This document shows positions 8,962-29,653 of a stretch of DNA of 64,000 nt, piece by piece (the stretch's first letter is position 1; each line of letters starts with the position of its first letter). This DNA comes from Candidatus Saccharimonadales bacterium (lineage in GTDB: Bacteria; Patescibacteriota; Saccharimonadia; Saccharimonadales; EFPC-124), in contig DATIBO010000006.1 of the NCBI GenBank assembly GCA_035457485.1, positions 818,659 through 882,658 of the forward strand, read 5' to 3'. The notes beneath the pieces are model-generated. The model searched no databases and was not told where the DNA came from. It saw only the letters and a program-made list of their open reading frames with translations. Made by a program: the position numbers and the translations under genes.

Positions 8962-9075
8962 CGGGCGAGTCCAGTTAAATGCTTTTACTATCGTAACATT
9001 TTTATAGCACTTCGCCCATTGATAAGTTCTCTTACATCCATCCTGGAGCGAGATGTCGCCCGGGAACTTTGGGAT

Positions 9076-9110
9076 GCGCCCGGACAGCAAAGTGAACACT
9101 GCCCGGGCGC
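9076..9110 (-). terminator. GC-rich hairpin 28 nt downstream of the island-1 CDS
   Basis: On the minus-strand RNA, GCGCCCGGGCAG (9110..9099) pairs with CUGUCCGGGCGC (9087..9076). That gives 12 bp including one G-U, with an 11-nt loop and no U-tract. Confidence 0.55.
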
Positions 9111-9137
9111 TGTCAGTTTTGACCGACTGACGACGGT

Positions 9138-9962
9138 TTAATCATCGACGAAGGCGCCGCTTTCCTGATCGGGATAGCGAACATCCAGGCCTGAGACGCG
9201 GAAGTCAGAGAAGGCCTCGGACATCCAGACCCGATTCTTGCTCGAGGCGCCTACGACCTCCTCTTGCCAGGCGAGCTCGCCGAAGCGAGCCAGGAACGCC
9301 GTCTTGACGAACTCGTCCTCATCCAACGAACCCGTGCCGAATTCACGGCCGATCGTCCAGATTTTGAGGGCGTCCATCAGGTGTGGAATCGACAGCTGCA
9401 CGCCGAAGTCTGGATGAGCCACCAGAGCCCGAAGCGTGTCGTTGTCTGGGTTGCACGCGGCGATGATGCGGAACAGTGCTTCAGCGATGTCGCTGTGATC
9501 GGGATCGGAGTCTCCCCGGTCGCCGAAGAAAACCGCATCGCCGCGACCAGCCATGAGCACAACCGCCACATGAAGCGAGTTGTTCGTATCGAACCCATCG
9601 CCGCGCGGCACAAGGTGAATGCCGCCAGCGGTCAGGGTTGCGATCCCGAACGGATCACTCTCGTCTGGACCCTCGTACAGGTCCAGTACGACCATGCCGC
9701 GGTAGCCGAACTGAGGGCGGCCGAGCGAAACGGCCTTCCCCACCACATCAGCATAGTCCTCGGCTCTGTACTTGCCGGCGTGAATGAGATCCGCGAGGTC
9801 GCGGTCCATCACGTAAGCGTCCACGGCAGACTCGAAGTCGGTCTTCAAGTCCAATCGCGCCGCCACTGCTGGAATCTCAGGCTCCGGCAATGCCAAAGCC
9901 CCGGTTAGCCGACAAATCACCTCAAATCGGAGGAAATTGTCAGATCTTGCACCCCAGATCAT
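9138..9962 (-). CDS. Hypothetical protein, 274 aa, compositionally foreign (high-GC island 1)
   Basis: ATG 9962 is preceded by GAAGGGAGAGCA. Codons are strongly G/C-ending in this frame. A 214-aa antisense shadow ORF is typical of high-GC coding DNA. The product is acidic and cytoplasmic-looking, with no motif I recognise. Confidence 0.75.
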   Translation of the reverse strand: MIWGARSDNFLRFEVICRLTGALALPEPEIPAVAARLDLKTDFESAVDAYVMDRDLADLIHAGKYRAEDYADVVGKAVSLGRPQFGYRGMVVLDLYEGPDESDPFGIATLTAGGIHLVPRGDGFDTNNSLHVAVVLMAGRGDAVFFGDRGDSDPDHSDIAEALFRIIAACNPDNDTLRALVAHPDFGVQLSIPHLMDALKIWTIGREFGTGSLDEDEFVKTAFLARFGELAWQEEVVGASSKNRVWMSEAFSDFRVSGLDVRYPDQESGAFVDD

Positions 9963-10016
9963 TGCTCTCCCTTCGAGCCGCCGCAGAACTTCTGCAGCAA
10001 GCGGATGATCTGATGA

Positions 10017-10045
10017 ATTATAAAATAATAAGCTATGCTTTACAA
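10017..10045 (-). promoter_or_regulatory. Sigma70-like promoter candidate upstream of the island-1 CDS
   Basis: The minus strand reads TTGTAA (10045..10040), a 17-nt spacer, then TATAAT (10022..10017). It lies in the AT-rich stretch between the secA stop and island 1. Confidence 0.4.
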
Positions 10046-10083
10046 TATAAATTCGTTAGCGCCGCAATGTGCGACGCTATAAA

Positions 10084-12690
10084 CTAATGTTTTTTGTGAC
10101 GATTTTTGCGTTCTTTTTTGCGTTTTTTACGAAGGTCACTCTTTTTCTTTTTAGAATCATCAACCATCTGCTTTGACTCGCTTGCAGTTTCGAACTTAAC
10201 CTCTTTTTGTGGTTTACCAAGTTCATTTACACCCTGCTCGACCGAGTTTTCGGCCGCACGCGTAAGCTCAGTATCAAAACTGTCGTCCTGAACACTCGCG
10301 GTATCACGTTTAGTTAAATGCAGTAGCGCTCGCACCACTTCCTGGCGTTTTGTTCCTTGTAATTCCTCAAACAATCGTTGAGATTCCTGACGATATTCTA
10401 CCAACGGATCGCGCTGGCCGATTCCACGCAAGTGAATTCCTTCGCGTAAATGTTGCATGTTCTCTAGGTGACGCATCCACAAAGTATCCAAAACTTGCAG
10501 GTAAACCTCACGCTCAACTTTACGCATTAATTCTTCGCCCACTTCGGCTTCTTTGTTTTGATAAAGATTTAAGGCCTCCTCTTCGGCTACATCTGTGCGC
10601 TCTTTGTCTTTTTTGGCAGCTTCCATTTTTTTGAGAATTTCATTCGCGACCGGAATTACAGCCTCAAACTCTCCCGCAAAACTTGGGTTTTCTTTTGGTC
10701 CAAACGCCGCCAAAAAGTTAGCTTCATCCCTAACCATCTGCTTAACTTCTTCAGATATATCGCCGCCCAGCAAAATATTGCGCCTGATTGTGTAAACCGC
10801 GCGCCTATGACGATTCATAACATTGTCATATTGCACTACGTTTTTGCGAGCATCAAAGTTAAAGCCTTCAACCTTTTTTTGCGCATTCTCTAAAGTTTTG
10901 CTCACGGCTTTGTTTTGAATTGGCGTTTCCTCATCTACACCTAATCTATCCATCAGTGTGCGGATTCGCTCACCCTGGAAAATTCGCATCAAATCGTCTT
11001 CTGTCGAAACGTAGAATTGAGTCAAACCGGGGTCACCCTGACGACCACAACGTCCACGCAACTGATTGTCAATTCGGCGCGATTCGTGACGCTCTGACCC
11101 GATGACGACCAAACCACCTAGTTCTTTAACTTCCGGCGCAAGCACGATATCCGTTCCGCGGCCGGCAATGTTAGTCGCCAAAGTCACGGCACCTCTTTGA
11201 CCAGCTTTAGCAATGATCGAGGCTTCGCTCTCGTTGTTTTTGGCGTTCAATGTTTGATGTACGACCCCAGCTTTTGTGAGCGCCTTGCTAAGAGCTTCGT
11301 TCTTTTCGATCGAAACAGATCCAATTAACACCGGTCGCCCCAGTTTATTGTACTCTTTTACAGTCTCAACAATCGCCTTAAACTTACCAACTTCGGTTTT
11401 AAAAATCATGTCGGTTTTATCTTCGCGGATCACGGGTTTGTTGGCCGGAATCTGAATCACATCAAGACCATAAATCTGCTGAAATTCTTCAGCCTCGGTG
11501 TAAGCCGTTCCTGTCATTCCCGAAAGTTTGTTGTAAAGTCTAAAGTAGTTCTGGAAGCTGATCGTCGCCAAAGTCATGCTTTCCTGCAAAACTGGCACAC
11601 CTTCTTTAGCCTCGATAGCCTGGTGCAACCCTTCGTTGTACCTACGGCCATGCATTAAACGACCGGTAAATTCATCTACAATTACGACCTCTTTTTCTAC
11701 TGTTACAACGTAGTTTTTGTCGCGCTTAAATAAAGTTTGCGCTCGCAGCGCCTGGTTCATGTGATAAACCGCGCGAACGTTCTCGGGCGCGTAAAAGTTA
11801 GCTATTCCAAGCAATTTCTCTACCTTTTCTACGCCTTCGTCGGTCAGGTTTACTGCGTGGCGCTTTTCGTCCAAAACGTAGTCAGCCGGTACAAGTTTTT
11901 TCGCAATCGCCGCAAAGCTTGCGTAGTTATTGCCACTGTCGCTGGATGGCGCGCTGATAATTAGCGGCGTCCGAGCTTCATCGATTAAAATGCTGTCAAC
12001 CTCATCCACGATCGCAAAGTTTAGTTCGCGCTGACGCAGCTCATCAACTTCGTTAACCATGTTGTCGCGCAGATAATCAAAACCAAACTCGTTATTTGTG
12101 CCGTAGGTAATATCTGCGGCGTAGGCTTCTTTACGAGTGCAAGGGCGAAGTTTTTTCATCCTTGGGTCGTCGTGGGCTTCGTTTTCAAACGTAGGATCGT
12201 AAATAAATGACTGATCTGGTATAACCACCGCTACGCTCATACCCAAAAAATCGTAAACCGGACCCATCCAGCCAGCGTCACGTTGCGCCAAGTAATCGTT
12301 TACGGTTACAACGTGGACACCTTTACCGGTTAGTGCGTTTAAGTAGGTTGGCAAAGTGGCAACTAAAGTCTTACCTTCACCAGTTTTCATTTCTGCGACG
12401 TTGCCCTCGTGCAAGGCCATTCCACCTATTAATTGCACGTCAAAATGGCGCATTTTAAGCGTGCGACTAGAGGCCTCGCGCACTGTAGCGAAGGCGTCTG
12501 GCAAAATGTCTTCTAGGGTTTTATTTTTGGCAAGCTGCTCTTTTAAAACCTTAGTTTGCTTTTTAAGATCGCTGTCGTTAAGCTTTTCGTATTTACTACT
12601 TAACGAATTAATCGTCGCAACCTTCTTACGCAAACGGCGCAAAATTTTAGCTTGTGGGTCTCCAAAAATTTTTGTCAAAAACTGTCGCAT
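10084..12690 (-). CDS. secA: Preprotein translocase ATPase SecA
   Basis: Walker A MKTGEGKTLVATLP and DEAD-like DEVDSILIDEARTPLIIS. Start chosen at ATG 12690 (MRQFLTKIFGD...), which has GGAG 7 nt upstream. The basic K/R-rich C-terminal tail has no Cys zinc motif. Confidence 0.9.
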   Translation of the reverse strand: MRQFLTKIFGDPQAKILRRLRKKVATINSLSSKYEKLNDSDLKKQTKVLKEQLAKNKTLEDILPDAFATVREASSRTLKMRHFDVQLIGGMALHEGNVAEMKTGEGKTLVATLPTYLNALTGKGVHVVTVNDYLAQRDAGWMGPVYDFLGMSVAVVIPDQSFIYDPTFENEAHDDPRMKKLRPCTRKEAYAADITYGTNNEFGFDYLRDNMVNEVDELRQRELNFAIVDEVDSILIDEARTPLIISAPSSDSGNNYASFAAIAKKLVPADYVLDEKRHAVNLTDEGVEKVEKLLGIANFYAPENVRAVYHMNQALRAQTLFKRDKNYVVTVEKEVVIVDEFTGRLMHGRRYNEGLHQAIEAKEGVPVLQESMTLATISFQNYFRLYNKLSGMTGTAYTEAEEFQQIYGLDVIQIPANKPVIREDKTDMIFKTEVGKFKAIVETVKEYNKLGRPVLIGSVSIEKNEALSKALTKAGVVHQTLNAKNNESEASIIAKAGQRGAVTLATNIAGRGTDIVLAPEVKELGGLVVIGSERHESRRIDNQLRGRCGRQGDPGLTQFYVSTEDDLMRIFQGERIRTLMDRLGVDEETPIQNKAVSKTLENAQKKVEGFNFDARKNVVQYDNVMNRHRRAVYTIRRNILLGGDISEEVKQMVRDEANFLAAFGPKENPSFAGEFEAVIPVANEILKKMEAAKKDKERTDVAEEEALNLYQNKEAEVGEELMRKVEREVYLQVLDTLWMRHLENMQHLREGIHLRGIGQRDPLVEYRQESQRLFEELQGTKRQEVVRALLHLTKRDTASVQDDSFDTELTRAAENSVEQGVNELGKPQKEVKFETASESKQMVDDSKKKKSDLRKKRKKERKNRHKKH

Positions 12691-12816
12691 ATTTGTCTCC
12701 AAGTTAAAGGGAAGAATCCTTAATAGTATACCCACATTTAGCACTGAATGGAATGGTCTGCCAACAATAGCCGCCTAATAGATTACGGGGCATAATTGAG
12801 CATTTCTACGCCACAG

Positions 12817-13188
12817 CTACCCCAAAAATCTTGCTCGTAATCTTCGCAAAATATTAGGATGAGTAGTTTTTAAATGAGCCACATGCTCTTGTTTATACTT
12901 TACGAACTGATTTTTTATTTTCTGTTCAACTATATCTACAGCGGCAAACATATTCATTGTCGATTCTTTGGCGGCAATTTGCTTATCGGGAACGGTCACA
13001 ACAATTTCGCATTCGTATTTATTGCCCAAACGATTATTGGTTTGGCGCAATTTAACCTCTGCATGAGCGGTTTTGCGAGCATGTCGCGGCAAATACTTAT
13101 CGAGTGAGCCAATTTTTTTGCGAGCATATTTTTTAATATCCGCGCCCAAATCTAGGTTAACCCCAGTAATTTCGATTTGTGTTAGCAT
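12817..13188 (-). CDS. hpf: Ribosome hibernation factor, short HPF/RaiA (YfiA) family
   Basis: 123 aa, with an N-terminal MLTQIEITGVNLDLGADIKKYARKKIGSLDKYL pattern typical of the sigma-54-modulation/RaiA fold. Confidence 0.75.
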   Translation of the reverse strand: MLTQIEITGVNLDLGADIKKYARKKIGSLDKYLPRHARKTAHAEVKLRQTNNRLGNKYECEIVVTVPDKQIAAKESTMNMFAAVDIVEQKIKNQFVKYKQEHVAHLKTTHPNILRRLRARFLG

Positions 13189-13196
13189 ATTCCCCT

Positions 13197-14492
13197 TTAA
13201 ATTTTAGTTTTGCCGCCCATGTAAGGTCGTAAAACTTCCGGTACGGCTACGTTGCCATCTTTGTCTTGGTTGTTTTCGATTATCGCAATCAGTGGGCGCA
13301 TCGACAAAACTGTAGCATCGTTAGTATGAACAAGCTCGACGTCGCCATTTTTTAGGCGGACGCGAGTTTGCAAGCTTCGAGCCTGAAAATCTGTAATATA
13401 GTCGGCGGTGTGAGTTTCACGATATTTGTTCTGGCCGGGTAGCCAGCAGTCGATATCGACACCTGTCGCGTTCGGTCCACCAATATCGTAGGTGCATTTT
13501 TGCACCACGCGATAAGGCAGCTTCAGTTGCTGTATTAGATACTCCTGGATTGCAACCATGAGCTTATGCTCTTCAAGGCCGGTTTCGGCGGTCGTAAAAC
13601 TTTCGGCTTCTAGCTTATCAAACTGATGTAAGCGGAAGATTCCTTCCATATCTTTGCCATAAGTTCCAGCCTCACGCCTAAAAGAAGTTGAATATGCGAT
13701 ATAACGGATCGGTAACTCGGCCTCAGGCAAGATTTCGTCCATGTACATTGGGCACATGCTGTGCTCGGCGCTAGCGTTCAGCCAAATTTCATCATCGGCA
13801 AGTTTGTAAGTTGTTTCCTCGGCATTTAATCGACCAGTGGCTTCGTATACGTCAGTTTTGATCACCGCCGGTGGCATAACTGGCGTAAACGGTTTGGTCG
13901 AAACTCTTAGGCCATTCTGCTCAACAATTTTTTTAATAACCACCTCGTCAGTCATCACATCAATCGCCCAGTCAACAACTGCGCGCTGAAGCTTAACAAG
14001 GTCACCTTTTACATACGCAAAGCGGCTTCCTGCAACTTTTGCGGCACGTTCTTTGTCGATCCAACCTTTAGCCACGCCAATTTCGTTGTGGTTTTTAGGT
14101 TCAAAATCAAATTTAGTCGGTTCGCCTACGGTTTTTGTAATTACGTTTTCGTCTTCGCTCGCGCCGACCGGAACGTCCGCAAGCGGCATGTTTGGAACTT
14201 TTTTAAGCTCTACCAAAAACTCTTTATCTAAAACTGTAAATTCGTCCTCGAGTTTTGAAAGCTGATTCTTAAGCTCGCGGCCTTCGGTTAATTGCTCCTC
14301 TGTTGGCTTACCTTGTTTTAACGTAGCAGCATGTTCATTACGTTTTTTGCGTAGAGTTTCTATTTTTGCGCTCAATTCGCGACGCGAACTATCTAGCTTA
14401 AGTAAATGTTTAACGTCTACTTTATAGCCTTTTTGTTCAGACTTTTTTTGCACTTCTTCGGCGTGCTCGCGAATATAACGGATGTCTAGCAT
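13197..14492 (-). CDS. serS: Seryl-tRNA synthetase
   Basis: N-terminal coiled-coil arm (MLDIRYIREHAEEV...). Class II motif 2 FRREAGTYGKDMEGIFRLHQFDKLE. Confidence 0.9.
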   Translation of the reverse strand: MLDIRYIREHAEEVQKKSEQKGYKVDVKHLLKLDSSRRELSAKIETLRKKRNEHAATLKQGKPTEEQLTEGRELKNQLSKLEDEFTVLDKEFLVELKKVPNMPLADVPVGASEDENVITKTVGEPTKFDFEPKNHNEIGVAKGWIDKERAAKVAGSRFAYVKGDLVKLQRAVVDWAIDVMTDEVVIKKIVEQNGLRVSTKPFTPVMPPAVIKTDVYEATGRLNAEETTYKLADDEIWLNASAEHSMCPMYMDEILPEAELPIRYIAYSTSFRREAGTYGKDMEGIFRLHQFDKLEAESFTTAETGLEEHKLMVAIQEYLIQQLKLPYRVVQKCTYDIGGPNATGVDIDCWLPGQNKYRETHTADYITDFQARSLQTRVRLKNGDVELVHTNDATVLSMRPLIAIIENNQDKDGNVAVPEVLRPYMGGKTKI

Positions 14493-14532
14493 GGGGTTAA
14501 TTATACTATGATTTAAGGAGTTTAGGAATCAT

Positions 14533-15027
14533 TTACAACCTTGGCAGCTCCGAGTATGGCACGTGACAAGCGCCTAGCCCAGTTTTTTCGGTGTATTTTT
14601 GGTGATATTCTTCGGCTCGATAAAACTCACTAGCTTTTGTAATCTCGGTAGCCAGGGGCACTTTAAAATCTTTTTGAACCATTGCTTTTACTTGTTCTGC
14701 GACATTTTTCTGATCATCATTTATGTAAAATATTGCGCTACGATAATTATCGCCGATGTCTGGGCCCTGACCATCGACTTGCGTTGGATCGTGCATTCTA
14801 AAGAATTGCCGCAAAATATCTTTATAGCTAATCTTGTTAGCGTCAAAGTCAATTTTGACGGCTTCAGCATGTCCAGTATCGTGCTGACAAACTTGATCGT
14901 AGGTTGGATTTTTAGTATGACCGCCAGTGTACCCAACCTCGGTTTCCATTACCCCGGGAACTTGATCAAAATAAGCCTGGACTCCCCAAAAGCAGCCGGC
15001 TGCTAAAATTGCTGTTTGTTTATTCAT
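14533..15027 (-). CDS. msrA: Peptide methionine (S)-S-oxide reductase MsrA
   Basis: Active-site motif GCFWG near the N-terminus; 164 aa. Confidence 0.9.
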   Translation of the reverse strand: MNKQTAILAAGCFWGVQAYFDQVPGVMETEVGYTGGHTKNPTYDQVCQHDTGHAEAVKIDFDANKISYKDILRQFFRMHDPTQVDGQGPDIGDNYRSAIFYINDDQKNVAEQVKAMVQKDFKVPLATEITKASEFYRAEEYHQKYTEKTGLGACHVPYSELPRL

Positions 15028-15039
15028 ATATTAATTAAA

Positions 15040-15636
15040 TCACCGTAATGCTCTTGCTGCTAGTATAACAGCCAGTACGCCGATTATGTTAAGTAGAAAA
15101 CAGATGAACAAGATATAACGGCGCTTAAAACGCGAAATTCCCATCAGACTTAAGCCAACTTCGTCGGGGATTGGCGTAGCAATTATAAAGGCACCGATTA
15201 AAAATAAGATCCACGTAGTAAATCGGTGTCGCATGACTTTAACCAAGCTTGGAACTCGAAACTTTTTGAATAATGGTCGTAGCTCGGCAAAAACTTTTTC
15301 GTCATAAAATTTTAGCGCAATCCAGTCGCCTGCTGTTGACCCAGTGGCGATTACTAATGCCAAAAGGTACGGCTCGTATTTACTGGAAAGATCTATCATC
15401 AAAACTATGGCTGGAGCGGCGGTAAAAAACGACACCGAAAGTAGACCCGCAATAAAGCCTCCAAGATAACCAAAACTTTCTATATAGCTAAAAATACTGC
15501 TTAAGAATACGCTGTCTAGAAGCAGAATAAATAATATAATTACCAGCATGGCTAAAGTTGAATGCTTGTATTCATAGCCGAGCCACCACTTATTGAGCTT
15601 TTTTAGTAATGGTTTTTTGCGCGCTCGTTTGCTCAT
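15040..15636 (-). CDS. Integral membrane protein, possibly VTT/DedA-YqaA-like
   Basis: 198 aa with a basic N-terminus and about 5 TMs. The motif ATPIPDEVGL resembles the PxPxE of VTT-domain proteins. The family call is weak. Confidence 0.4.
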   Translation of the reverse strand: MSKRARKKPLLKKLNKWWLGYEYKHSTLAMLVIILFILLLDSVFLSSIFSYIESFGYLGGFIAGLLSVSFFTAAPAIVLMIDLSSKYEPYLLALVIATGSTAGDWIALKFYDEKVFAELRPLFKKFRVPSLVKVMRHRFTTWILFLIGAFIIATPIPDEVGLSLMGISRFKRRYILFICFLLNIIGVLAVILAARALR

Positions 15637-15732
15637 ACATCTTATTATAAGTAAAAATGCTTGTGTTATAAATGTTTGCTTTTTGCAAATAAAATTATAT
15701 AATTTTTTTTAGGTACTACATCGGGAGGATGA

Positions 15733-16116
15733 ATGACCGAAAAGGCCGAGGGCATCGAGGAGAACGTGAACGTCTTCCGCAAGTTCGTGGGAGATTCGTT
15801 CATGAACTACGTCGAGCTCCACTTTAACCGCGGAGGACTCGATGGACTGCAGCGTGCGCTTGAACCTCAGTCGCGCGAGAAGCTGGCAGCCTACCTGAGC
15901 GCCAACTACAACGCAGTTCGACAGCAAGGCTGGCCGCGGTTCGGCGAGGTCGTACACACGACCATCAACAACCTGACAGTCCACCTGCTGGAGCTGTTGG
16001 ACGACCCATCCAGTAATGCCTACCCCCTGTCCCTCAAAGAACTCGGAGTATCTCCGCTCGCGATCGTCACACACATCATGACGGCGATCCGAAACCCATT
16101 CCCCTTCTACCCGTAA
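15733..16116 (+). CDS. Hypothetical protein, 127 aa, compositionally foreign (high-GC island 2)
   Basis: GGGAGG (15723-15728) lies 4 nt before ATG 15733. Codons mostly end in G/C. A hairpin follows the stop. The overlapping 152-aa minus-strand ORF looks like a shadow ORF. No motif recognised. Confidence 0.7.
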   Translation: MTEKAEGIEENVNVFRKFVGDSFMNYVELHFNRGGLDGLQRALEPQSREKLAAYLSANYNAVRQQGWPRFGEVVHTTINNLTVHLLELLDDPSSNAYPLSLKELGVSPLAIVTHIMTAIRNPFPFYP

Positions 16117-16123
16117 AAACCCT

Positions 16124-16160
16124 GCGAGGGGCGGCCCGAAATCTCGTGGCCACCCCTCGC
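16124..16160 (+). terminator. GC-rich hairpin 8 nt after the island-2 stop
   Basis: GCGAGGGG-C-GGCC (16124-16136) pairs with GGCC-A-CCCCTCGC (16148-16160). That gives 12 bp with one C/A mismatch and an 11-nt loop. It ends 8 nt before the convergent gdh stop. Confidence 0.55.
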
Positions 16161-16167
16161 ACACCAA

Positions 16168-19169: not shown

Positions 19170-19179
19170 TGATCTAACT

Positions 19180-22228: not shown

Positions 22229-22265
22229 ATTTACTTCACCTTTTTGATTATTATATCTGTTCCAA

Positions 22266-22305: not shown

Positions 22306-22317
22306 CGGTCGGATAGA

Positions 22318-22776
22318 TTATCCAATAGCTACGATACTATAACTTACCTCGCCACTCGGCGTTTTTATGCTGGCTTTGTCGCCCACTTTTTTACCCAATA
22401 ATGCCTGGCCAATTGGAGATTCGTCGCTAATTTTGCCTGCTAGCGGGTCAGCTTCAACAGATCCAACAACTGTATACTCAACTTTTTTACCGCTATCGTG
22501 TTTAAGCGTAACTTTGCTTCCAACGCCGACAGTGCTGCTTGTACGAGCTTTAATTATGCTTGCGTTTTGCAAAATATCTTCGATTTCAGCAATCCGGCCT
22601 TCTAGTTGACCTTGTTCGTTACGTGCTTCGGCATATTCAGCATTTTCACTCAAATCACCGTAGTCACGTGCATCGGCAATTTTTTGTGCAACTTCACCGC
22701 GACGAGCCTTAAGCTCTTCAAGCTCTTTTTCTAAATCTAACTTACCAGCAGCCGTTATCTGATAGGCTTTCTTCAT
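22318..22776 (-). CDS. greA: Transcription elongation factor GreA
   Basis: Signature GDLSENAEYAEARNEQ. Start chosen at ATG 22776 (MKKAYQITAAG...), preceded by GGAAAGAGAG. Confidence 0.9.
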   Translation of the reverse strand: MKKAYQITAAGKLDLEKELEELKARRGEVAQKIADARDYGDLSENAEYAEARNEQGQLEGRIAEIEDILQNASIIKARTSSTVGVGSKVTLKHDSGKKVEYTVVGSVEADPLAGKISDESPIGQALLGKKVGDKASIKTPSGEVSYSIVAIG

Positions 22777-22911
22777 ATTACTCTCTTTCCTAAATTGTCT
22801 CTTTAAAGATAATTGAAACCGGCTATCCTGGCCTGCGCCGCTTTTCAATCAACTTGACCAGTATAGCAACCTAGTTTTTTTGTTGCAAGTTCTTACCTAC
22901 AGGGTACACAT

Positions 22912-24333: not shown

Positions 24334-24446
24334 ATAAGTTCCAAGATTAAGTTGTAAAAGCTAGTTTAAAACAAATTTACCGGCAAGCCGGAATCTGGGG
24401 TTTGTAGCTTAAAACAAATTTCATATCTGTCAACATAATACCACAC

Positions 24447-25172
24447 CTAGCTAACCTTAAAAACAAACAACAGCAAAAAAGCTACTGAGTTTTTAAATAC
24501 ATGCAAAAATATAGATGGCCACAGACTGCCGCTTTTTTCGCGGATGAAACAACTGATCATACTCATTACGAAAACATCTATAGCCACATTTAGTTGCCAG
24601 TGTGCTGCTGCAAAAAAAACACTCACCAAGACGGCAGCAAACCAAAATGGCAGTTTGTTGCGAAAACCCGTAAAAATTAGGCCTCTAAATAAAAACTCTT
24701 CGGCGAATGGCGTTAAAATTACCAATACAAAAAATGTCAGTAGATATTCAGCACCGACCAAATTCGCAAATCCAACATCTTGGGATTCCTCCATGTTGAT
24801 CGGAAAAAGCAAGCTCATCACGCCCAAAAACAAAATCGAAAGCGGCATGTAGGCTAAAAATGCCAAGCCAGCGGTCTTTAGGTATTTGAGGTTAAAATCA
24901 CTAAAACCGATCGCTTTAAAATCTAATTTATAGAACTTTAGAACTGCTGCGACGCCAGCTATAAGCAAGAGTTCATAAATAAGCGCAGCAATGAAGTTTT
25001 TAAAGTTACCGCTAATGTCTAGCTGCGTGACTAAAGGGGCGATAAATGCCAGTACTACGGCTGGGGCCGTAAAAATCAACACTCCCCAAAAAAGTGCACC
25101 GGCAATTCCCAGCTTTCGCTGTTTTGGACTTGACGCAACGTCTTGTGATTTTTTAGAAGAATCGTCTAACAT
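24447..25172 (-). CDS. CPBP-family intramembrane glutamic endopeptidase (CAAX protease/Abi-like)
   Basis: Motif 1 is EEFLFRG, motif 2 is FAAAHW, and there is a later H (FLHVFKN). Multi-TM. Confidence 0.8.
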   Translation of the reverse strand: MLDDSSKKSQDVASSPKQRKLGIAGALFWGVLIFTAPAVVLAFIAPLVTQLDISGNFKNFIAALIYELLLIAGVAAVLKFYKLDFKAIGFSDFNLKYLKTAGLAFLAYMPLSILFLGVMSLLFPINMEESQDVGFANLVGAEYLLTFFVLVILTPFAEEFLFRGLIFTGFRNKLPFWFAAVLVSVFFAAAHWQLNVAIDVFVMSMISCFIREKSGSLWPSIFLHVFKNSVAFLLLFVFKVS

Positions 25173-26235
25173 CTACAACTGTCACAACCACAATTAAAAC
25201 CATCAGGAATATAAATCCGCCTGCCTGAAAAGCTTCTTCTCGCTCTTTGGTAAGTGGTTTATTTAACGCTTTAAAAACTAAAGTCACAAACAACCGACCA
25301 CCGTCTAGTGCAGGTATTGGCAGCGCGTTCATAACAGCAAGTGTTAGCGAAATTACTCCTATTAAGAATAGCACTGGAACTATACCTGACTCGCTACTAT
25401 CTTTTAGGATGCCGAAAATTCCAACCGGGCCCGCCACGCTTGCACCAGCTGTAGCAAAATCGGCTTTAAATAAGCTTTTTACTACATCAAACAAACCCTT
25501 TATTGTTTCGTAGGTAAACTGAACGGTTACCCCTACGCCGACAATTGGCGCCGACCAAGTAGATCGCTGCGCAGTTTGCGTAGTTGGGGCAACACCCAAA
25601 TAACCTTGATCTGTTTTTTCGGCATTAAGTGTGGCTTCCGTTTCATTTATTTGGCCTTTGCGCTCATAAACAATTGGAACGGTTTGGCCAGCGCTAGCCT
25701 TTGTTAAATCTGTAAGCTGAGCTTCGGACGTAACAGTTTGGCCGGCGACACTTTTAATAATGTCACCCGATTGCAGGCCCGCCTTTGCCGCCGGCGAATC
25801 GTCCAATACCGCTACTTTTACATCAGAACTAACTACTACGGTGTCTGACGGGATTGTAAACTGATTTGGAAAAACTTTAGGAAGACCAACCAACGCCAAA
25901 ATAGTGAAGATAAACACTGCAACAAGCCAGTTTATCGCAACTCCGGCAAGCAGAATTTTGGTTTTCGCCCATAGAGTTGCGCCGCCGTACGTGCCATCGC
26001 CACTAGCTGCGTCATGTTCACCTTTTAACTTTACAAAGCCGCCGATCGGCAGCCAGTTAATGCTAAAAAGAACGCCATTTTTAAGCTTTTTAGCGAATGC
26101 TCGGGGTGGAAAACCAATCCCGAATTCTTCTACCTCGACACCGTTACGTTTAGCGGCAATAGCATGGCCAAGCTCGTGTACGATAATAAGCCCCACGAAT
26201 AAAATCAAACCAAAAATAAGTAATGCAATTTCCAT
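25153..26235 (-). CDS. rseP: RIP site-2 metalloprotease RseP (M50)
   Basis: HELGHAIAA (HExxH), an internal PDZ-like segment, and NALPIPALDGG. Confidence 0.85.
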   Translation of the reverse strand: MEIALLIFGLILFVGLIIVHELGHAIAAKRNGVEVEEFGIGFPPRAFAKKLKNGVLFSINWLPIGGFVKLKGEHDAASGDGTYGGATLWAKTKILLAGVAINWLVAVFIFTILALVGLPKVFPNQFTIPSDTVVVSSDVKVAVLDDSPAAKAGLQSGDIIKSVAGQTVTSEAQLTDLTKASAGQTVPIVYERKGQINETEATLNAEKTDQGYLGVAPTTQTAQRSTWSAPIVGVGVTVQFTYETIKGLFDVVKSLFKADFATAGASVAGPVGIFGILKDSSESGIVPVLFLIGVISLTLAVMNALPIPALDGGRLFVTLVFKALNKPLTKEREEAFQAGGFIFLMVLIVVVTVVDVRRFF

Positions 26236-26311
26236 TACAGCAATTATAACTGCTGGGAGCCAAAAACAAAACAGTTAGCAAGGTTGTCCTGGCGGCCGGC
26301 TTTTAACCGTC

Positions 26312-26866
26312 CTAAATTGTCATAATTTCTTGCTCTTTGGCCTTCGCAAGAGTATCTAACTTAGTTTGCGCGCTAGCCATGGCTGCGTCGAGGGATTTTT
26401 CCGCTCGTTTGACATCATCTTCGGACATTGCTTTGGCGTCTTTTTGTGCTTTCGCGTCTTTTAGCGCATCATGACGAACGTTGCGCATAGCCACGCGGCA
26501 ATCTTCGACTTTTTCGCCAAGCTGTTTAACAATTTGCTGGCGACGCTCGGTGGTAAGCGGCGGCACGTTTACACGCACTACTCGCCCGTCATCCGACGGA
26601 TTAAAGCCAAGACTCTGGTCGTCGCGAATGGCTTTAACGACAGCTTGTAAATTCGCCATGTCAAATGGCGAGATCTGCAAAAGTTGTGGTTCTGGCACTG
26701 TTATGGTCGCCACCTGGATGAGCGGCATTTTTGCGCCGTAGGCTTCTACCATGATGCCATCAAGCATTCCAGGGTTAGCGCGGCCAGTGCGGATTTTTTT
26801 AATCTCGTCTTCAAAATGCAACAAAGCTAGTTGCAAGCGTTCTTCGTATTTTTTAGTATCAAACAT
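26312..26866 (-). CDS. frr: Ribosome recycling factor
   Basis: MFDTKKYEERLQLALLHFEDEIKKIRTGRANPGMLD... is typical of RRF. I start it at ATG 26866. The track ORF start at 26950 lies inside the GC-rich foreign segment. Confidence 0.9.
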   Translation of the reverse strand: MFDTKKYEERLQLALLHFEDEIKKIRTGRANPGMLDGIMVEAYGAKMPLIQVATITVPEPQLLQISPFDMANLQAVVKAIRDDQSLGFNPSDDGRVVRVNVPPLTTERRQQIVKQLGEKVEDCRVAMRNVRHDALKDAKAQKDAKAMSEDDVKRAEKSLDAAMASAQTKLDTLAKAKEQEIMTI

Positions 26867-26973
26867 AATTTTATAATAACAGAAGTAAAACTTTTTGGCA
26901 TGCGAAACCCCCTGAGGGGCTCCTGCATCTCGTGAATTCAGGCCCATCATGGGGGTTTGTGTTGGTACTTTGT

Positions 26974-27357
26974 TCAGATCTTCTTCGGGTTGGCGGTTGC
27001 GACCCAGGCGATCATCGCCAGCAGGCTGTGCACGATGGCGTAGCCGGTGGTGATGCTCACGACCTGCGCCACGTTGAGGTAGCCGTCGATCGTGAACGCG
27101 AAGGCCAGGATGTTGATACCGACCGTTGCGAAGAAAAGGTTGATCACGTTGATCAGGAAGTCGTCTCGGGTGAAGACCCGCTTGGACGTGCTTCCGATGA
27201 GCTCCTGGGGCAGAGCGCGCATAGTAGCGCGGTACGCAAAGAAGCCGGCGCTGAGAATCCCGAAGACGGCCAGCAGGAACGCCATGCCACTCATCTGAGG
27301 AGCATCGACGCCGAATGCCGGGTCGTTACCGAAGGGGTTCGTCGCGAGAACGTTCAT
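26974..27357 (-). CDS. Hypothetical 3-TM membrane protein, ~127 aa, compositionally foreign (high-GC island 3)
   Basis: GGAG (27366..27363) lies 5 nt before ATG 27357; the track start at 27363 is a GTG. Three hydrophobic helices: GMAFLLAVFGILSAGFFAY, FLINVINLFFATVGINILAFAFTI and VVSITTGYAIVHSLLAMIAWVA. A 165-aa antisense shadow ORF is present. Confidence 0.7.
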   Translation of the reverse strand: MNVLATNPFGNDPAFGVDAPQMSGMAFLLAVFGILSAGFFAYRATMRALPQELIGSTSKRVFTRDDFLINVINLFFATVGINILAFAFTIDGYLNVAQVVSITTGYAIVHSLLAMIAWVATANPKKI

Positions 27358-27417
27358 GATCACTCCAAAGTACGTGGTTCTGCCGATTGGCAGGCCGTCT
27401 TTTTGGACGGTAATGTA

Positions 27418-27446
27418 ATAATAACATAAGTAGTTTAAAAAGTCAA
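27418..27446 (-). promoter_or_regulatory. Sigma70-like promoter candidate just downstream of the tsf terminator
   Basis: The minus strand reads TTGACT (27446..27441), a 17-nt spacer, then TATTAT (27423..27418). It lies in AT-rich DNA immediately before the GC-rich island-3 segment. Confidence 0.45.
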
Positions 27447-27470
27447 TGTTAGAGCTTATGCTTAAATATA

Positions 27471-27499
27471 GAAATAACCCCTGTTAGGGGGGTTATTTC
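27471..27499 (-). terminator. Intrinsic terminator after tsf
   Basis: GAAATAACCCC (27471-27481) pairs with GGGGTTATTTC (27489-27499) around a 7-nt loop. It lies 20 nt past the tsf stop. Confidence 0.75.
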
Positions 27500-27518
27500 T
27501 TAGGTATTTTTAAGCGTC

Positions 27519-28118
27519 TTATTCGCTTACACCAAGTTCAAATCGCGCCATGCGGCGCACAACGATATTTTCACCTAATTTCGAGATATGACTTTTTACT
27601 AAGTCGCCAACTTTTTCGTCTGGGTTTTTGATGAATGGTTGTTCCATTAAGCAAAGTTCGCCAAAGTGTTTGGTGATCATGCCTTCAACAATTTTTGGAA
27701 CCATTGCCTCTGGCTTGCCTTCGTTTTTCACTTTTTCAGTAAATTCAGCAGCTTTTGCTTCGCGAACGTCGGCCGGAACGTCTTCGATGTTAACGTAAAG
27801 TGGCGCGCTTGCCGCAATATGCATTGCAAGGTCGTGCACCAAGTTTTTAAAGTCGTCAGTGCGAGCCACAAAGTCGGTTTCGCAGTTAACTTCTACTAAA
27901 ACGCCAATTCGGCCACTGTGAACATAGCTTTCTACCAAACCTTGGCTAGCTTCACGTTCGCCGCGCTTTTCGGCTTTGGTCAAGCCTTTTTTGCGCATTT
28001 CGCTCAATGCCTTGTCAAAGTCGCCATCAGCGTCGACCAAAGCTTGTTTTGCATCGGTTAAACCAACGCCGGTTAAATCTTTAAGTCGTTTTACTTCATC
28101 TAAAGATACGTTTGCCAT
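27519..28118 (-). CDS. tsf: Elongation factor Ts (short form)
   Basis: N-terminal UBA-like segment VKRLKDLTGVGLTDAKQALVDADGDFDKALSEMRKKG. Start chosen at ATG 28118, 1 nt after the rpsB stop. Confidence 0.9.
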   Translation of the reverse strand: MANVSLDEVKRLKDLTGVGLTDAKQALVDADGDFDKALSEMRKKGLTKAEKRGEREASQGLVESYVHSGRIGVLVEVNCETDFVARTDDFKNLVHDLAMHIAASAPLYVNIEDVPADVREAKAAEFTEKVKNEGKPEAMVPKIVEGMITKHFGELCLMEQPFIKNPDEKVGDLVKSHISKLGENIVVRRMARFELGVSE

Positions 28119-28119
28119 T

Positions 28120-28836
28120 TTATTCACCCTTCTTATCAGAGCTCTTGCGCCCGGCGATGCCTTCTTCAACAGCTTGTTTTACGTAGTCAACAATTAACTG
28201 AATACCTTTAATTGCATCGTCGTTTGCAGGAATAACGTAGTCAATCAAGTCTGGGTTTGCATTACTGTCAACAATAGCAACAACAGGGATATCTAGACGA
28301 CGAGCTTCTTTGATCGCGTTTTCTTCGACGACAACATCTACAACAAACATTGCACCTGGGCGACCATTAAGCTCTTTAATACCGCCGTACTTAAAGTTTA
28401 AACTGTCAATTTCCTCTTGGAAGCGCTGAACTTCTAGCTTGTTATAACGACCAGCAAGTTCGCCCGCCGCCATTTTGGTTTCAAGCTGCTTCAAATGCTT
28501 GATGCGTTCGTTAACAGTTTTAGTGTTAGTAAGCATTCCGCCCATCCAACGCTCGGTGATGTAAGGCATCTTGGTTTCAAGCGCAGCTTGTTTAACAATA
28601 TCGCGAGCTTGGCGCTTTGTGCTTACAAATAAAATTTGCTTGCCTTCGGCTGCTGTTTTGGTCAAAAACGGAAGAGCTTTTTCTAGACCTTCAACAGTTT
28701 TTGTTAAATCAATAATGTGGCTTCCAGCTCGTTTGCTGTGAATGTATTTGGCCATTTTTGGGTGCCAACGGCTTGTTTTGTGACCAAAATGCGCGCCAGA
28801 CGCGAGCAAGGCCTTAATATCTACTGATACTGCCAT
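28120..28836 (-). CDS. rpsB: 30S ribosomal protein S2
   Basis: GAHFGHKTSRWHPKM near the N-terminus; 238 aa; followed by tsf. Confidence 0.95.
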   Translation of the reverse strand: MAVSVDIKALLASGAHFGHKTSRWHPKMAKYIHSKRAGSHIIDLTKTVEGLEKALPFLTKTAAEGKQILFVSTKRQARDIVKQAALETKMPYITERWMGGMLTNTKTVNERIKHLKQLETKMAAGELAGRYNKLEVQRFQEEIDSLNFKYGGIKELNGRPGAMFVVDVVVEENAIKEARRLDIPVVAIVDSNANPDLIDYVIPANDDAIKGIQLIVDYVKQAVEEGIAGRKSSDKKGE

Positions 28837-28920
28837 GATTAATCCTTTATCTTTGTTTGTGCGCTGCCCTTATGGGAGGATTTTTACACAAACTGTTTCA
28901 TTAAAATTTGTTACAGATGT

Positions 28921-28949
28921 ATTCTATCAAACTTAATCTGTTGTGTCCA
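28921..28949 (-). promoter_or_regulatory. Promoter candidate for rpsB-tsf
   Basis: The minus strand reads TGGACA (28949..28944), a 17-nt spacer, then TAGAAT (28926..28921), about 85 nt upstream of the rpsB ATG. Confidence 0.45.
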
Positions 28950-28962
28950 GTATACGCATGTA

Positions 28963-28991
28963 TTGTGTAGTTAACCAAGTTGTGGTATAAA
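28963..28991 (+). promoter_or_regulatory. Promoter candidate, divergent from rpsB, now facing the island-4 CDS
   Basis: TTGTGT (28963-28968), a 17-nt spacer ending in TGG (extended -10 TGn), then TATAAA (28986-28991). Confidence 0.4.
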
Positions 28992-29020
28992 TTTGTAGCC
29001 TACAACGGAAGGAGAAGATC

Positions 29021-29551
29021 GTGACTGAGACCGACCCACAGTCCGACTCGGCGATCTACCGAAGGCAAGGAAGCCTCGTCGCCGGTCTGCTGATGGACAC
29101 CCTGAGGCGAGAACTCAGTGGACTGTCCAGAAGGAACGGCACTCACGAACTTCTGAGCTCAGTACTGGACCATCGTCGAATCGGCGACATGGTTCGCGAA
29201 CTGTCTCAGACCATCCCCCCGGATCTCGGTGCAATCGTTCGCGAAACCTCGCTGGGGCTCGACGAAGAGTCCCCGATTCCGAGGATCGTGGACGCCGATC
29301 AGGCACTCTCCAACATCAGCACCAAGCTCGAAGTCACGCAGCAACTCGTTCGGATCTTCCGAATCCTTCGGACGATCTACGCGGCAACACTCGTGCAGGA
29401 TCACTCGGTCGAGGGCTGTGCTGCTCTCGCCTGCGTGACCTATGGTCGCATCCTGGAGGTCGTCGACCTGAGGGAGGCAACCTTCGAGAGCGCACTCACG
29501 CTGCGCAAGGACGTGATCCGAGCACTTCAGGTCACAACGCTTGAGAGCTGA
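29021..29551 (+). CDS. Hypothetical protein, 176 aa, compositionally foreign (high-GC island 4)
   Basis: GTG start at 29021 with GGAAGGAG (29007-29014) 6 nt upstream. Composition looks helical with R/L/E/D-rich content. A strong terminator follows. No motif recognised. Confidence 0.7.
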   Translation: MTETDPQSDSAIYRRQGSLVAGLLMDTLRRELSGLSRRNGTHELLSSVLDHRRIGDMVRELSQTIPPDLGAIVRETSLGLDEESPIPRIVDADQALSNISTKLEVTQQLVRIFRILRTIYAATLVQDHSVEGCAALACVTYGRILEVVDLREATFESALTLRKDVIRALQVTTLES

Positions 29552-29560
29552 CAGCCCGCG

Positions 29561-29620
29561 AAAAAGCCCACGGAAGCCAAGATAACATCTGGCTCCGGCC
29601 GCGGCTTCCGCGGGCTTTTT
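29561..29620 (+). terminator. Intrinsic terminator after the island-4 CDS
   Basis: AAAAAGCCC-A-CGGAAGCC pairs with GGCTTCCG-C-GGGCTTTTT. That gives 12 GC-rich bp with one A/C mismatch plus an A5/T5 extension and a 24-nt loop. Confidence 0.8.
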
Positions 29621-29653
29621 CTATGGCCGCAAACTGGTATATAGTATTAGCCT

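What the first reader, a model, noticed from the sequence alone, without database searches (positions are those of the whole stretch)
9041..29630. Four sharply bounded high-GC single-gene cassettes scattered through 20 kb of low-GC housekeeping genes
**Seen in sequence**
- Four segments stand out compositionally: about 9041-10010, 15709-16165, 26900-27415 and 29000-29630.
- My hand counts of single 60-nt lines gave 37/60, 35-38/60, 39/60 and 34/60 G+C inside the four segments. Neighbouring backbone lines gave 19/60 (intergenic) and 28/60 (coding).
- Each segment carries exactly one ORF (274, 127, ~127 and 176 aa) with G/C-ending codons.
- Each has a GGAG/GGGAGG-type SD 4-6 nt from the start.
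- Each has a GC-rich imperfect hairpin shortly after the stop.
- Three of the four carry a long antisense shadow ORF of 150-215 aa (214, 152 and 165 aa); island 4 has only short out-of-frame ORFs of about 63-81 aa.
- None disrupts a neighbouring gene.
- I found no integrase, transposase, tRNA, flanking direct repeat or inverted repeat.
- Islands 1, 3 and 4 each sit between an AT-rich sigma70-like promoter (10017-10045, 27418-27446, 28963-28991) and a native same-strand gene (M16-murD operon, frr, TerC-like gene). It looks as if an RBS-CDS-terminator unit had been dropped into a native 5' UTR.
- All four lie in the first 30 kb of the window and none in the remaining 34 kb.

**Inference**
- These are recent, un-ameliorated acquisitions from a high-GC donor. 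For a Saccharibacteria-like epibiont, an actinobacterial host is the obvious candidate.
- The four motif-less products may form a dispersed accessory set, for example orphan immunity, anti-toxin or host-interaction factors.
- Alternatives are a chimeric assembly or a deliberately engineered construct.
Basis: partly seen in the sequence, partly recalled or inferred. Interest (0 to 1): 0.85.

Follow-up and report, generated by a model that had tools for sequence, protein, structure and literature searches.

The report
GC-rich orphan gene islets in Saccharimonadales
Four small GC-rich genes with no relatives in any database sit between housekeeping genes of a soil Saccharimonadales genome; they look like foreign genes picked up some time ago that now evolve fast, which is an ordinary kind of event in an unusually clean form.

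Summary
Four segments (9042-10004, 15744-16165, 26897-27397, 29020-29615) have 59-61% G+C against a 44% backbone (z 4.6-6.4). Their GC3 is 0.71-0.85 against 0.33-0.48. Tetranucleotide and codon usage match each other but not the backbone. Each carries one gene with an SD, and three of the four have a very stable 3' hairpin.

They are not assembly artefacts. A second assembler gives the same junctions for islands 3 and 4. A contig from a different sample carries island 4 at the same junction.

They are insertions relative to relatives, where the sites are empty or hold other cargo. The products are orphans: no family, phage, plasmid or structure match. Island 4 has one homologue, in a sister strain. 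That pair gives dN/dS 0.24, so it is a real gene that predates the strain split.

In related species, GC-rich islets at the same slots stay GC-rich but keep only 38-49% identity, while flanking genes keep 90-95%. "Foreign origin" is therefore supported. "Recent, un-ameliorated" and "from the actinobacterial host" are not shown.

Islands 3 and 4 are flanked by 20-22-nt imperfect direct repeats that duplicate the promoter of the downstream leaderless gene.

Verdict: a new member of a known kind, of moderate interest.

The parts
9042..10004 (-). Island 1: GC-rich segment (0.606) between secA and the M16 peptidase gene
   Evidence: boundaries from a maximum-scoring GC segment
10017..10045 (-). AT-rich sigma70-like promoter (TTGTAA-17-TATAAT) upstream of the island 1 gene
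9138..9962 (-). ISL1 CDS: 274 aa, acidic, orphan. SD GGGAG at 9967-9971.
   Evidence: No homologue. No family hit.
9076..9110 (-). Stable 3' hairpin of island 1 (stem of 12-14 bp, no U-tract)
   Evidence: -36.2 kcal/mol, z -5.7
15744..16165 (+). Island 2: GC-rich segment (0.595) between the hyp198 gene and the stop of the convergent GDH gene
   Evidence: The site is empty in L140 and L146.
15733..16116 (+). ISL2 CDS: 127 aa, orphan. SD GGGAGG at 15723-15728.
16123..16161 (.). 14-bp-stem hairpin. The T-tract is on the minus strand only, so it probably also terminates the convergent GDH gene.
   Evidence: -32.1 kcal/mol, z -6.4
26897..27397 (-). Island 3: GC-rich segment (0.593) in the tsf|frr slot
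   Evidence: The slot is empty in most relatives.
27418..27446 (-). Promoter TTGACT-17-TATTAT with TG, driving the island 3 gene. It overlaps the upstream repeat copy.
27411..27432 (-). Upstream copy of the 22-nt direct repeat (86% identical). It spans roughly -21 to +1 of the promoter.
26974..27357 (-). ISL3 CDS: 127 aa from ATG 27357 (129 aa from GTG 27363), three predicted TM helices. SD GGAG at 27363-27366. Public annotation calls the opposite strand.
26908..26961 (-). Imperfect 3' hairpin of island 3
   Evidence: -26.7 kcal/mol, z -2.2
26866..26887 (-). Downstream copy of the 22-nt repeat. It is the extended -10 promoter of leaderless frr and ends at the A of the frr ATG (26866).
28983..29002 (+). 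Upstream copy of the 20-nt direct repeat (80% identical). It contains the extended -10 TGGTATAAA that drives ISL4.
29020..29615 (+). Island 4: GC-rich segment (0.607) in the rpsB|TerC slot
29021..29551 (+). ISL4 CDS: 176 aa, predicted all-helical. SD AAGGAG at 29009-29014. Its only homologue is the sister-strain orthologue P0006.
   Evidence: (dN/dS 0.24)
29560..29621 (+). 19-bp-stem terminator with A-tract and U-tract (bidirectional type)
   Evidence: -42.7 kcal/mol, z -5.7
29635..29654 (+). Downstream copy of the 20-nt repeat. It is the promoter of the (near-)leaderless TerC-like gene and ends at the A of its ATG (29654).

Best explanation
**What they are**
- The four segments are small accessory genes ('genomic islets') of foreign, high-GC origin.
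- They were integrated into intergenic slots of a plastic stretch of a soil/rhizosphere-type Saccharimonadales chromosome.

**How each is built**
- Each is a monocistronic unit: a native-style AT-rich promoter, a short leader with an SD, a GC-rich ORF and a strong hairpin.
- The hairpin insulates the next housekeeping gene, which keeps its own promoter.
- For islands 3 and 4 that promoter is a duplicated copy of the one now driving the islet.

**Age and rate of change**
- They are not fresh arrivals. At least island 4 predates a strain split.
- They evolve several-fold faster than their flanks under weak purifying selection, and they are partly ameliorated.
- Fast divergence explains why no donor homologue can be recognised.

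**Route of entry and function (inferred, not shown)**
- Entry was probably uptake of foreign DNA by natural competence, followed by illegitimate or homology-assisted integration. Deletion then trimmed the inserts to gene-sized units.
- The products are one 3-TM membrane protein and three soluble proteins: one acidic, one predicted helical, one uncharacterised.
- They are most likely strain-specific factors of the cell envelope or of host interaction. Their function is unknown.
For: - **Composition.** z is 4.6-6.4, and GC3 is 0.71-0.85 against 0.33-0.48. Tetranucleotide and RSCU profiles are shared among the islands and unlike the backbone. K/(K+R) is 0.24 against 0.62.
- **Real junctions.** The same junctions appear in the NCBI MAG and the Logan assembly, and in another sample.
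- **Insertions relative to relatives**.
- **Recurrence.** The same slots hold unrelated GC-rich cargo in other species. tsf|frr does so in L028, L044 and L039. SecA|M16 does so in L140 and L146.
- **Coding.** The codon-position GC pattern fits a coding frame. ISL3 has three TM helices. ISL4 against its orthologue gives dN/dS 0.24.
- **Age and fast evolution.** ISL4 is 74% nt identical to its orthologue, against 87-88% for the flanks. L140/L146 islet pairs are 38-49% aa identical, against 90-95% for SecA, M16 and GDH, with backbone dS 1.1-1.4. They are still at GC 0.59-0.62 against 0.50.
- **Expression signals**.
- **Entry route.** Saccharibacteria are naturally competent, and cultivated ones grow as epibionts on Actinobacteria (PMC10633639).
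Against: - No donor homologue was found for any island in very large protein collections. Foreign origin therefore rests on composition and on presence/absence alone.
- The 5' edge of GC-richness lies within about 20-55 nt of each start codon. That is neater than random DNA capture predicts without later trimming.
- ISL4 diverges about twice as fast as the adjacent non-coding DNA. Vertical descent with relaxed constraint does not fully explain this.
- The flanking promoter repeats of islands 3 and 4 are not explained by simple illegitimate recombination.
Confidence: 0.6

Rival explanations
1. One reading: these are very recent, un-ameliorated transfers taken directly from the current actinobacterial host. 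They form a dispersed immunity, antitoxin or host-interaction set.
For: - Island GC is 0.59-0.61 and GC3 reaches 0.85.
- Three of the four hairpins lack a U-tract. From my own knowledge this is common in high-GC Actinobacteria; it was not tested here.
- Cultivated Saccharibacteria live on Actinobacteria and are competent (PMC10633639).
Against: - Island 4 is shared with a sister strain at only 69% aa identity.
- The direct repeats have already diverged by 14-20%.
- There is no actinobacterial, or any other, homologue.
- There is no immunity, toxin or defence family hit.
Confidence: 0.12
2. These are slot-specific hypervariable native genes. The slots hold old lineage-specific genes under diversifying selection. 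Their high GC is kept up locally, either by GC-biased gene conversion at recombination hotspots or by repeated allelic replacement from a shared pool. It is not inherited from a foreign donor.
For: - The same slots are occupied in several species by GC-rich ORFs that are unrelated or barely related.
- Islet orthologues stay GC-rich after backbone dS exceeds 1.
- ISL4 has dS 0.85, while rpsB differs at only about 0.24 of third positions.
Against: - A rough two-state amelioration estimate (my inference) shows that a donor GC3 of 0.9 or more would still leave the observed excess. No special process is therefore needed.
- Many relatives have truly empty slots.
- L003 has a backbone-GC ORF at the rpsB|TerC slot.
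- GC3 of 0.85 in a genome with GC3 of 0.41 is far beyond reported gBGC effects (own knowledge).
Confidence: 0.13
3. A dedicated cassette-insertion mechanism acts at the transcription start of leaderless genes. It makes a target duplication of about 20-22 bp and captures transcript-shaped units (leader, ORF, terminator), perhaps through an RNA or other mobile intermediate.
For: - Islands 3 and 4 are bracketed by 22-nt and 20-nt repeats.
- Each repeat ends exactly at the A of the downstream ATG and spans the core promoter.
- Matches this good are seen in about 0-2 of 992 control intergenic pairs.
- The inserts are gene-shaped.
Against: - Islands 1 and 2, and about 35 islets in relatives, show no such repeats.
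- No recombinase, reverse transcriptase, TIR or attC was found.
- 11-17 extra nt lie between the hairpin and the repeat.
- Promoter duplication could have been selected after insertion.
Confidence: 0.07
4. The islands are an artefact: an assembly or binning chimera, contamination, an engineered construct, or non-coding GC-rich DNA with spurious ORFs.
For: - The genome is a MAG.
- GC-rich DNA gives long ORFs on both strands.
- The ISL1 and ISL4 structure models have low confidence.
Against: - Two assemblies agree, and a second sample reproduces the island 4 junction.
- The inserts sit exactly in intergenic DNA with intact flanking genes.
- Codon-position GC is periodic, dN/dS is 0.24, and ISL3 has TM helices.
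- There is no marker or vector gene.
Confidence: 0.03

Closest known systems
Horizontally acquired genomic islets and ORFans in bacterial chromosomes, under the compositional-anomaly and amelioration framework (Lawrence & Ochman; Daubin & Ochman; own knowledge)
   Same: - The composition is atypical, and the pattern across relatives is presence/absence.
- The genes are short orphans that evolve faster than core genes.
- They sit in intergenic hotspots between conserved core genes.
   Different: - Bacterial ORFans and islands are usually AT-rich relative to the host genome; these are strongly GC-rich.
- Each islet is a single gene with its own promoter, SD and terminator.
- No mobility gene or tRNA lies nearby.
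- No donor is detectable.
Integron gene cassettes, including cassettes inserted outside integrons
   Same: - Each is a single-ORF unit followed by an imperfect hairpin.
- They are scattered, with no neighbouring mobility gene.
- The cargo is diverse and orphan.
   Different: - There are no attC R''/R' cores.
- The window has no integrase or attI.
- The hairpins look like terminators.
- The units have their own upstream promoter.
- Two of them have 20-22-nt flanking repeats, which attC x attI recombination does not produce.
Core-genome HGT hotspots in naturally transformable bacteria, where accessory genes are exchanged by recombination in flanking core genes (own knowledge)
   Same: - The same slots (tsf|frr, SecA|M16, rpsB|TerC) hold different cargo in different species.
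- The host phylum is naturally competent.
   Different: - Exchange between strains was not demonstrated here.
- The cargo is one small gene per slot, not a multi-gene island.
Insertion sequences, MITEs and casposon-type elements with target-site duplications
   Same: Islands 3 and 4 are flanked by short direct repeats of similar length.
   Different: - There are no terminal inverted repeats and no transposase or Cas1.
- The repeats are longer than typical TSDs and coincide with a promoter.
- Islands 1 and 2 have none.

Membership tests
Horizontally acquired genomic islet | Composition significantly unlike the host genome (GC, GC3, oligonucleotides, codon usage) | tested here: met
Horizontally acquired genomic islet | Absent from the same site in related genomes (empty site) | tested here: met
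   - Island 2 site: 42-60 bp in L140 and L146.
- tsf|frr: 19-160 bp in about 35 relatives.
- SecA|M16: adjacent in L031 and L077.
- No close sister genome was available for islands 1-3.
Horizontally acquired genomic islet | Homologue in a plausible donor lineage that groups phylogenetically with the donor | tested here: not met
   - No homologue outside the lineage for ISL1, ISL2 or ISL4.
- ISL3 was checked only against phages, plasmids and IMG/VR.
Horizontally acquired genomic islet | Associated mobility functions (integrase, transposase, tRNA target) | tested here: not met
Integron gene cassette | attC site with RYYYAAC ... GTTRRRY cores bracketing an imperfect hairpin | tested here: not met
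   neither core is present on either strand at any of the four 3' ends
Integron gene cassette | Integron integrase and attI, or a cassette array, in the neighbourhood | tested here: not met
   No such domain in the 64-kb window. The rest of the 889-kb genome was not available.
IS / MITE / transposon | Terminal inverted repeats | tested here: not met
   best match 9-11 of 14-16 nt
IS / MITE / transposon | Target-site duplication | tested here: inconclusive
   Repeats of 20-22 nt flank islands 3 and 4 only. Islands 1 and 2 and the relatives' islets have none.
Toxin-antitoxin / polymorphic-toxin immunity / anti-phage defence gene | Match to a known toxin, immunity or defence family, or an adjacent cognate partner | tested here: not met
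   - Pfam, NCBIfam and PHROGs gave no significant hit (one NCBIfam match for ISL3, E 0.016, 14.7 bits against a 284-bit cut-off).
- PADLOC gave only E of about 0.004 or weaker, at 12-15 bits.
- The neighbours are housekeeping genes.
Assembly chimera | Junctions not reproducible in independent assemblies or samples | tested here: not met
   - Same junctions in the NCBI MAG and the Logan contig.
- Island 4 junction also found in sample SRR17477670.

The most novel reading that the evidence does not exclude
Soil Saccharimonadales may have a previously undescribed way of acquiring genes. Gene-sized, transcript-shaped units of high-GC (host-derived) origin would be inserted exactly at the transcription start of leaderless housekeeping genes, with a duplication of about 20-22 bp of the core promoter. 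Both the new gene and the essential downstream gene would then be expressed. On this reading the recurrently occupied slots (tsf|frr, rpsB|TerC, SecA|M16) are preferred landing pads.
Probability: 0.07. Interest if true: 0.8.

Novelty: new member of a known kind. Interest (0 to 1): 0.38.

Why it matters
- **If the main reading holds.** The window is a clean example of how an ultra-small, naturally competent epibiont gains lineage-specific genes without mobile-element machinery. The genes settle into a few intergenic slots, and they diverge fast enough to become orphans. This bears on the origin of the large 'hypothetical' fraction of Patescibacteria genomes. It also marks candidate host-interaction genes.
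- **What is less ordinary.** GC-rich orphans in an AT-richer genome are the reverse of the usual pattern. The promoter duplications next to leaderless genes are unexplained. Both could be tested genome-wide.

Tried and rejected
**Searches that found nothing useful**
- Homologues for ISL1, ISL2 and ISL4 in 5.8 billion clusters: only self, plus one sister-strain orthologue of ISL4.
- Full HMMER search of ISL1 against 1.84 billion representatives: only a marginal 52-aa repeat match in a 1661-aa BACON-repeat protein (E 2e-5, inflated by five repeats). I treated it as not informative.
- Pfam, NCBIfam, PHROGs and PADLOC, including the antisense ORFs (Pfam only): nothing significant.
- tblastn against phages (all four) and plasmids (ISL1, ISL3), and IMG/VR scans (all four): nothing.
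- PDB sequence search: nothing.
- AlphaFold2 of ISL1 (pLDDT 34) and ISL4 (pLDDT 39): too poor for a fold search, so none was run.
- Exact-protein look-ups of rpsB and tsf to find sister strains: only the same sample.
- Metagenome scan with GDH: no sister strain, but three useful syntenic relatives.
- Rfam and tRNA scans of the window: nothing.
- Two literature searches for GC-rich islands or HGT in Saccharibacteria: nothing relevant.

**Ideas tested and dropped**
- All-vs-all BLASTP of 244 GC-rich ORFs from about 110 related loci: no link to the window's four proteins.
- Profile comparison of the L140/L146 islet with ISL1, ISL2 and ISL4: no relation.
- Flanking repeats at about 35 islets in relatives: none above the null.
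- Integron cassettes: rejected because there are no attC cores.
- IS or MITE elements: rejected because there are no TIRs or transposase.
- A GC-rich edge at 1-600: it is part of an ordinary gene that runs off the window.
Full report
**Source of the window.** Exact look-ups place the island proteins in an NCBI third-party MAG named "Candidatus Saccharimonadales bacterium". The accessions are HSE29864.1, HSE29870.1, HSE29880.1 and HSE29883.1, on a contig of 889,392 bp. They also occur in the Logan assembly of run SRR25158331, on a contig of 129,987 bp. The backbone consists of housekeeping genes:
- ftsEX, mgtE, prfB, a Mur ligase, an M16 peptidase, secA, hpf, serS, msrA and GDH;
- a DUF2207 gene, a CitMHS transporter, a class II aaRS, greA, proS, rseP, frr, tsf and rpsB;
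- a TerC-like gene, rpmE, prfA, prmC, htrA, parAB, ileS, RNR and ftsZ.

No integrase, transposase, tRNA or Rfam family was found.

**Observation.**
- A 300-nt sliding profile shows four peaks near 0.6 G+C on a 0.44 background. They lie at 9.0-10.0, 15.75-16.15, 26.9-27.4 and 29.0-29.6 kb.
- Maximum-scoring segments are 9042-10004, 15744-16165, 26897-27397 and 29020-29615. Their G+C is 0.606, 0.595, 0.593 and 0.607. That gives z = 4.6-6.4 against same-length background windows, and each value exceeds the background maximum.
- G+C jumps by 0.2-0.3 within 100 nt at each edge.
- GC3 of the four ORFs is 0.71-0.85. Every backbone ORF lies at 0.33-0.48.
- Tetranucleotide distance to the backbone is 6-9 sd above that of backbone chunks.
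- RSCU correlates at about 0 with the backbone and 0.66-0.86 among the islands.
- Arginine replaces lysine: K/(K+R) is 0.24 against 0.62.

**Anatomy.** Each island has one convincing ORF with an SD 4-6 nt upstream.
- *ISL1* (9138-9962, minus strand) is 274 aa and acidic.
- *ISL2* (15733-16116, plus strand) is 127 aa.
- *ISL3* is best read on the minus strand from ATG 27357, giving 127 aa. It has GC3 0.85, three predicted TM helices and an SD. The public gene calls (165 and 155 aa) lie on the plus strand, whose frame has GC3 0.51 and GC1 0.78, and they look like the shadow ORF.
- *ISL4* (29021-29551, plus strand) is 176 aa and predicted helical.
- *Promoters.* Upstream promoters are AT-rich and native in style: TTGTAA-17-TATAAT at 10045-10017 and TTGACT-17-TATTAT at 27446-27418. 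Island 4 has an extended -10, TGGTATAAA, at about 28983.
- *Hairpins.* The 3' hairpins are very stable for islands 1, 2 and 4 (z -5.7 to -6.4) and weaker for island 3 (z -2.2). Only island 4 has a canonical U-tract. The island 2 hairpin carries its T-tract on the other strand, so it probably also terminates the convergent GDH gene.

- Island 3 is bracketed by a 22-nt direct repeat (27411-27432 and 26866-26887, 19 of 22 matches).
- Island 4 is bracketed by a 20-nt repeat (28983-29002 and 29635-29654, 16 of 20 matches).
- In 992 comparisons of other intergenic segments of the window, 19/22 or better and 16/20 or better occurred only 2 and 4 times. That count includes the 2 perfect (22/22 and 20/20) matches, which I take to come from the overlapping test segments rather than from true repeats.
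- In both cases the repeat is the core promoter, running from the extended -10 to +1. The downstream copy ends exactly at the A of the start codon of frr (26866) or of the TerC-like gene (29654).
- Those two genes therefore look leaderless. frr also looks leaderless in many relatives.
- So the native genes have not lost their promoter. A copy of the same promoter drives the islet.
- Islands 1 and 2, and about 35 islets in related genomes, show no such repeats.

**Artefact?** No.
- The Logan assembly gives the same arrangement for islands 3 and 4.
- A 969-bp contig from a different run, SRR17477670 (L082), carries the 5' end of rpsB, the same intergenic region, the same SD and an ISL4 orthologue at the identical junction.

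**Comparison with relatives.** A genome scan around the aaRS gene returned 80 Saccharimonadales loci, with 62-82% aa identity for that gene. The order rpsB-tsf-frr-rseP-...-aaRS-...-serS-hpf-secA is conserved across them.
- *tsf|frr.* The gap is 19-160 bp in about 35 relatives. It is 330-2370 bp in about 14 others, where it holds unrelated ORFs. Several of these are GC-rich: L028 has a 242-aa putative lipoprotein, L044 a 182-aa basic protein, and L039 two ORFs.
- *Syntenic relatives.* A metagenome scan with GDH added three syntenic relatives, L105, L140 and L146.
- *Island 2 site.* The GDH|hyp198 gap is 42 and 60 bp in L140 and L146, so the site is empty there.
- *SecA|M16.* This gap is 7-34 bp in distant relatives. 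In L140 and L146 it holds a GC-rich minus-strand ORF.
- *L146.* This locus carries about nine GC-rich small ORFs in 21 kb.
- *Cargo.* Across all loci, GC-rich ORFs are rare and concentrated in the window's nearest clade. Their few Pfam hits are heterogeneous: HTH_17, GDSL lipase, AMIN-like and a phage baseplate domain. None is related to the window's four proteins.
- *rpsB|TerC.* In L003 this slot holds an unrelated ORF of about 115 aa with backbone composition.

**Orphan status.**
- ISL1, ISL2 and ISL4 have no homologue in 5.8 billion protein clusters, apart from the ISL4 sister-strain orthologue.
- A word-index-free HMMER search of ISL1 over 1.84 billion representatives gave only a marginal repeat match.
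- Pfam, NCBIfam, PHROGs, PADLOC, PDB sequences, phage and plasmid tblastn and IMG/VR gave nothing significant.
- Structure prediction failed, with pLDDT of 34 and 39.

**Age and rate.**
- ISL4 against its orthologue gives dN 0.20, dS 0.85 and dN/dS 0.24. It is therefore a real gene under purifying selection.
- Its DNA is 73.9% identical to the orthologue. The adjacent rpsB coding DNA is 88.5% identical and the intergenic region 87.3%.
- In the L140/L146 pair, SecA, M16 and GDH are 90-95% identical, with dN 0.03-0.07 and dS 1.1-1.4. The two orthologous islets are 38% and 49% identical, with dN 0.43-0.63. They still have G+C of 0.59-0.62 against 0.50.
- Islets therefore persist over long periods, evolve roughly ten times faster in protein sequence than their neighbours, and remain GC-rich.
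- A rough two-state estimate (my inference, not a tool result) suggests that about 0.6 synonymous substitutions per site would leave just under half of an initial GC3 excess. A donor GC3 of 0.9 or more would then account for the present values. Persistence does not by itself demand a special GC-maintaining process.
- The 14-20% divergence between the two copies of each flanking repeat also fits an insertion older than the strain split.

**Interpretation.**
- The best-supported reading is horizontally acquired, partly ameliorated, fast-evolving accessory genes. They lie in a plasticity zone of the chromosome and are expressed from native-type promoters.
- Natural competence is documented for Saccharibacteria, which grow on Actinobacteria (PMC10633639). 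It is the most plausible entry route, but this is an inference.
- The donor is unknown. An actinobacterial host remains a reasonable guess, but no homology supports it.
- Rival readings cannot be excluded. One is a local GC-raising or allele-replacement process at hypervariable slots. Another is a dedicated insertion mechanism with promoter-length target duplication.
- Artefact and engineering are effectively excluded.

**Novelty and score.**
- Compositional islets and fast-evolving ORFans are well known. This is a clear new instance in a little-studied phylum.
- Two aspects are less usual. The orphans are GC-rich rather than AT-rich. Two of them have duplicated promoters of leaderless genes at their flanks.
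- Interest is 0.38.

Noticed in passing
window 26932-27429: The public gene calls for island 3 (NCBI HSE29880.1, 165 aa; Logan, 155 aa) are on the plus strand. Codon-position GC (GC3 0.85 against 0.51), an SD plus ATG at 27357, and three TM helices favour the minus-strand 127-aa ORF. The deposited protein is probably a shadow ORF.
   Followed up: yes
window 26866-26901 and 29635-29656: frr and the TerC-like gene appear leaderless or nearly so: an extended -10 ends 6-10 nt before the ATG, and there is no SD. frr shows the same layout in many related Saccharimonadales.
   Followed up: partly
window 26950-27518; loci L002-L081: There is no pyrH between tsf and frr in this clade. In about 14 of 50 relatives the tsf|frr gap is enlarged (330-2370 bp) by unrelated ORFs, so it is a recurrent accessory-gene slot.
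   Followed up: partly
L146 1-21188 (Ga0247766_1000012); L140: L146 carries about nine GC-rich small ORFs in 21 kb of the syntenic region. Islets shared with L140 are only 38-49% identical, while flanking housekeeping proteins are 90-95% identical.
   Followed up: partly
window 15040-15636: hyp198 is a four-TM orphan of normal backbone composition with no Pfam family. It has homologues only in L105, L140 and L146 (45-53% identity). It sits next to island 2 in a slot that is closed in L009 (GDH and msrA 12 bp apart).
   Followed up: partly
window 54045-58247: A 1400-aa ORF has no Pfam domain and an unusual codon-position composition (GC2 0.55, higher than its GC3 of 0.40). It may be a low-complexity surface protein.
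   Followed up: no
window 16123-16161: The island 2 hairpin has its T-tract on the minus strand. It probably serves as the terminator of the convergent GDH gene, so part of 'island 2' may be functionally native.
   Followed up: partly
window 7675-9099 and 26312-26950: The longest-ORF starts overshoot into the islands. Alignment with relatives puts the M16 start at ATG 8961 (MKHTPEEVV...) and the frr start at ATG 26866 (MFDTK...).
   Followed up: yes
L003 250-870: The closest relative with a TerC-like gene next to rpsB has an unrelated ORF of about 115 aa, of backbone G+C, at the slot that island 4 occupies in the window.
   Followed up: no
window 9540-9700 (ISL1 residues 87-141): This stretch shows marginal similarity (about 30% over 52 aa) to a unit repeated six times in a 1661-aa BACON-domain protein (P0007). 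The significance is probably inflated by the repeats.
   Followed up: partly
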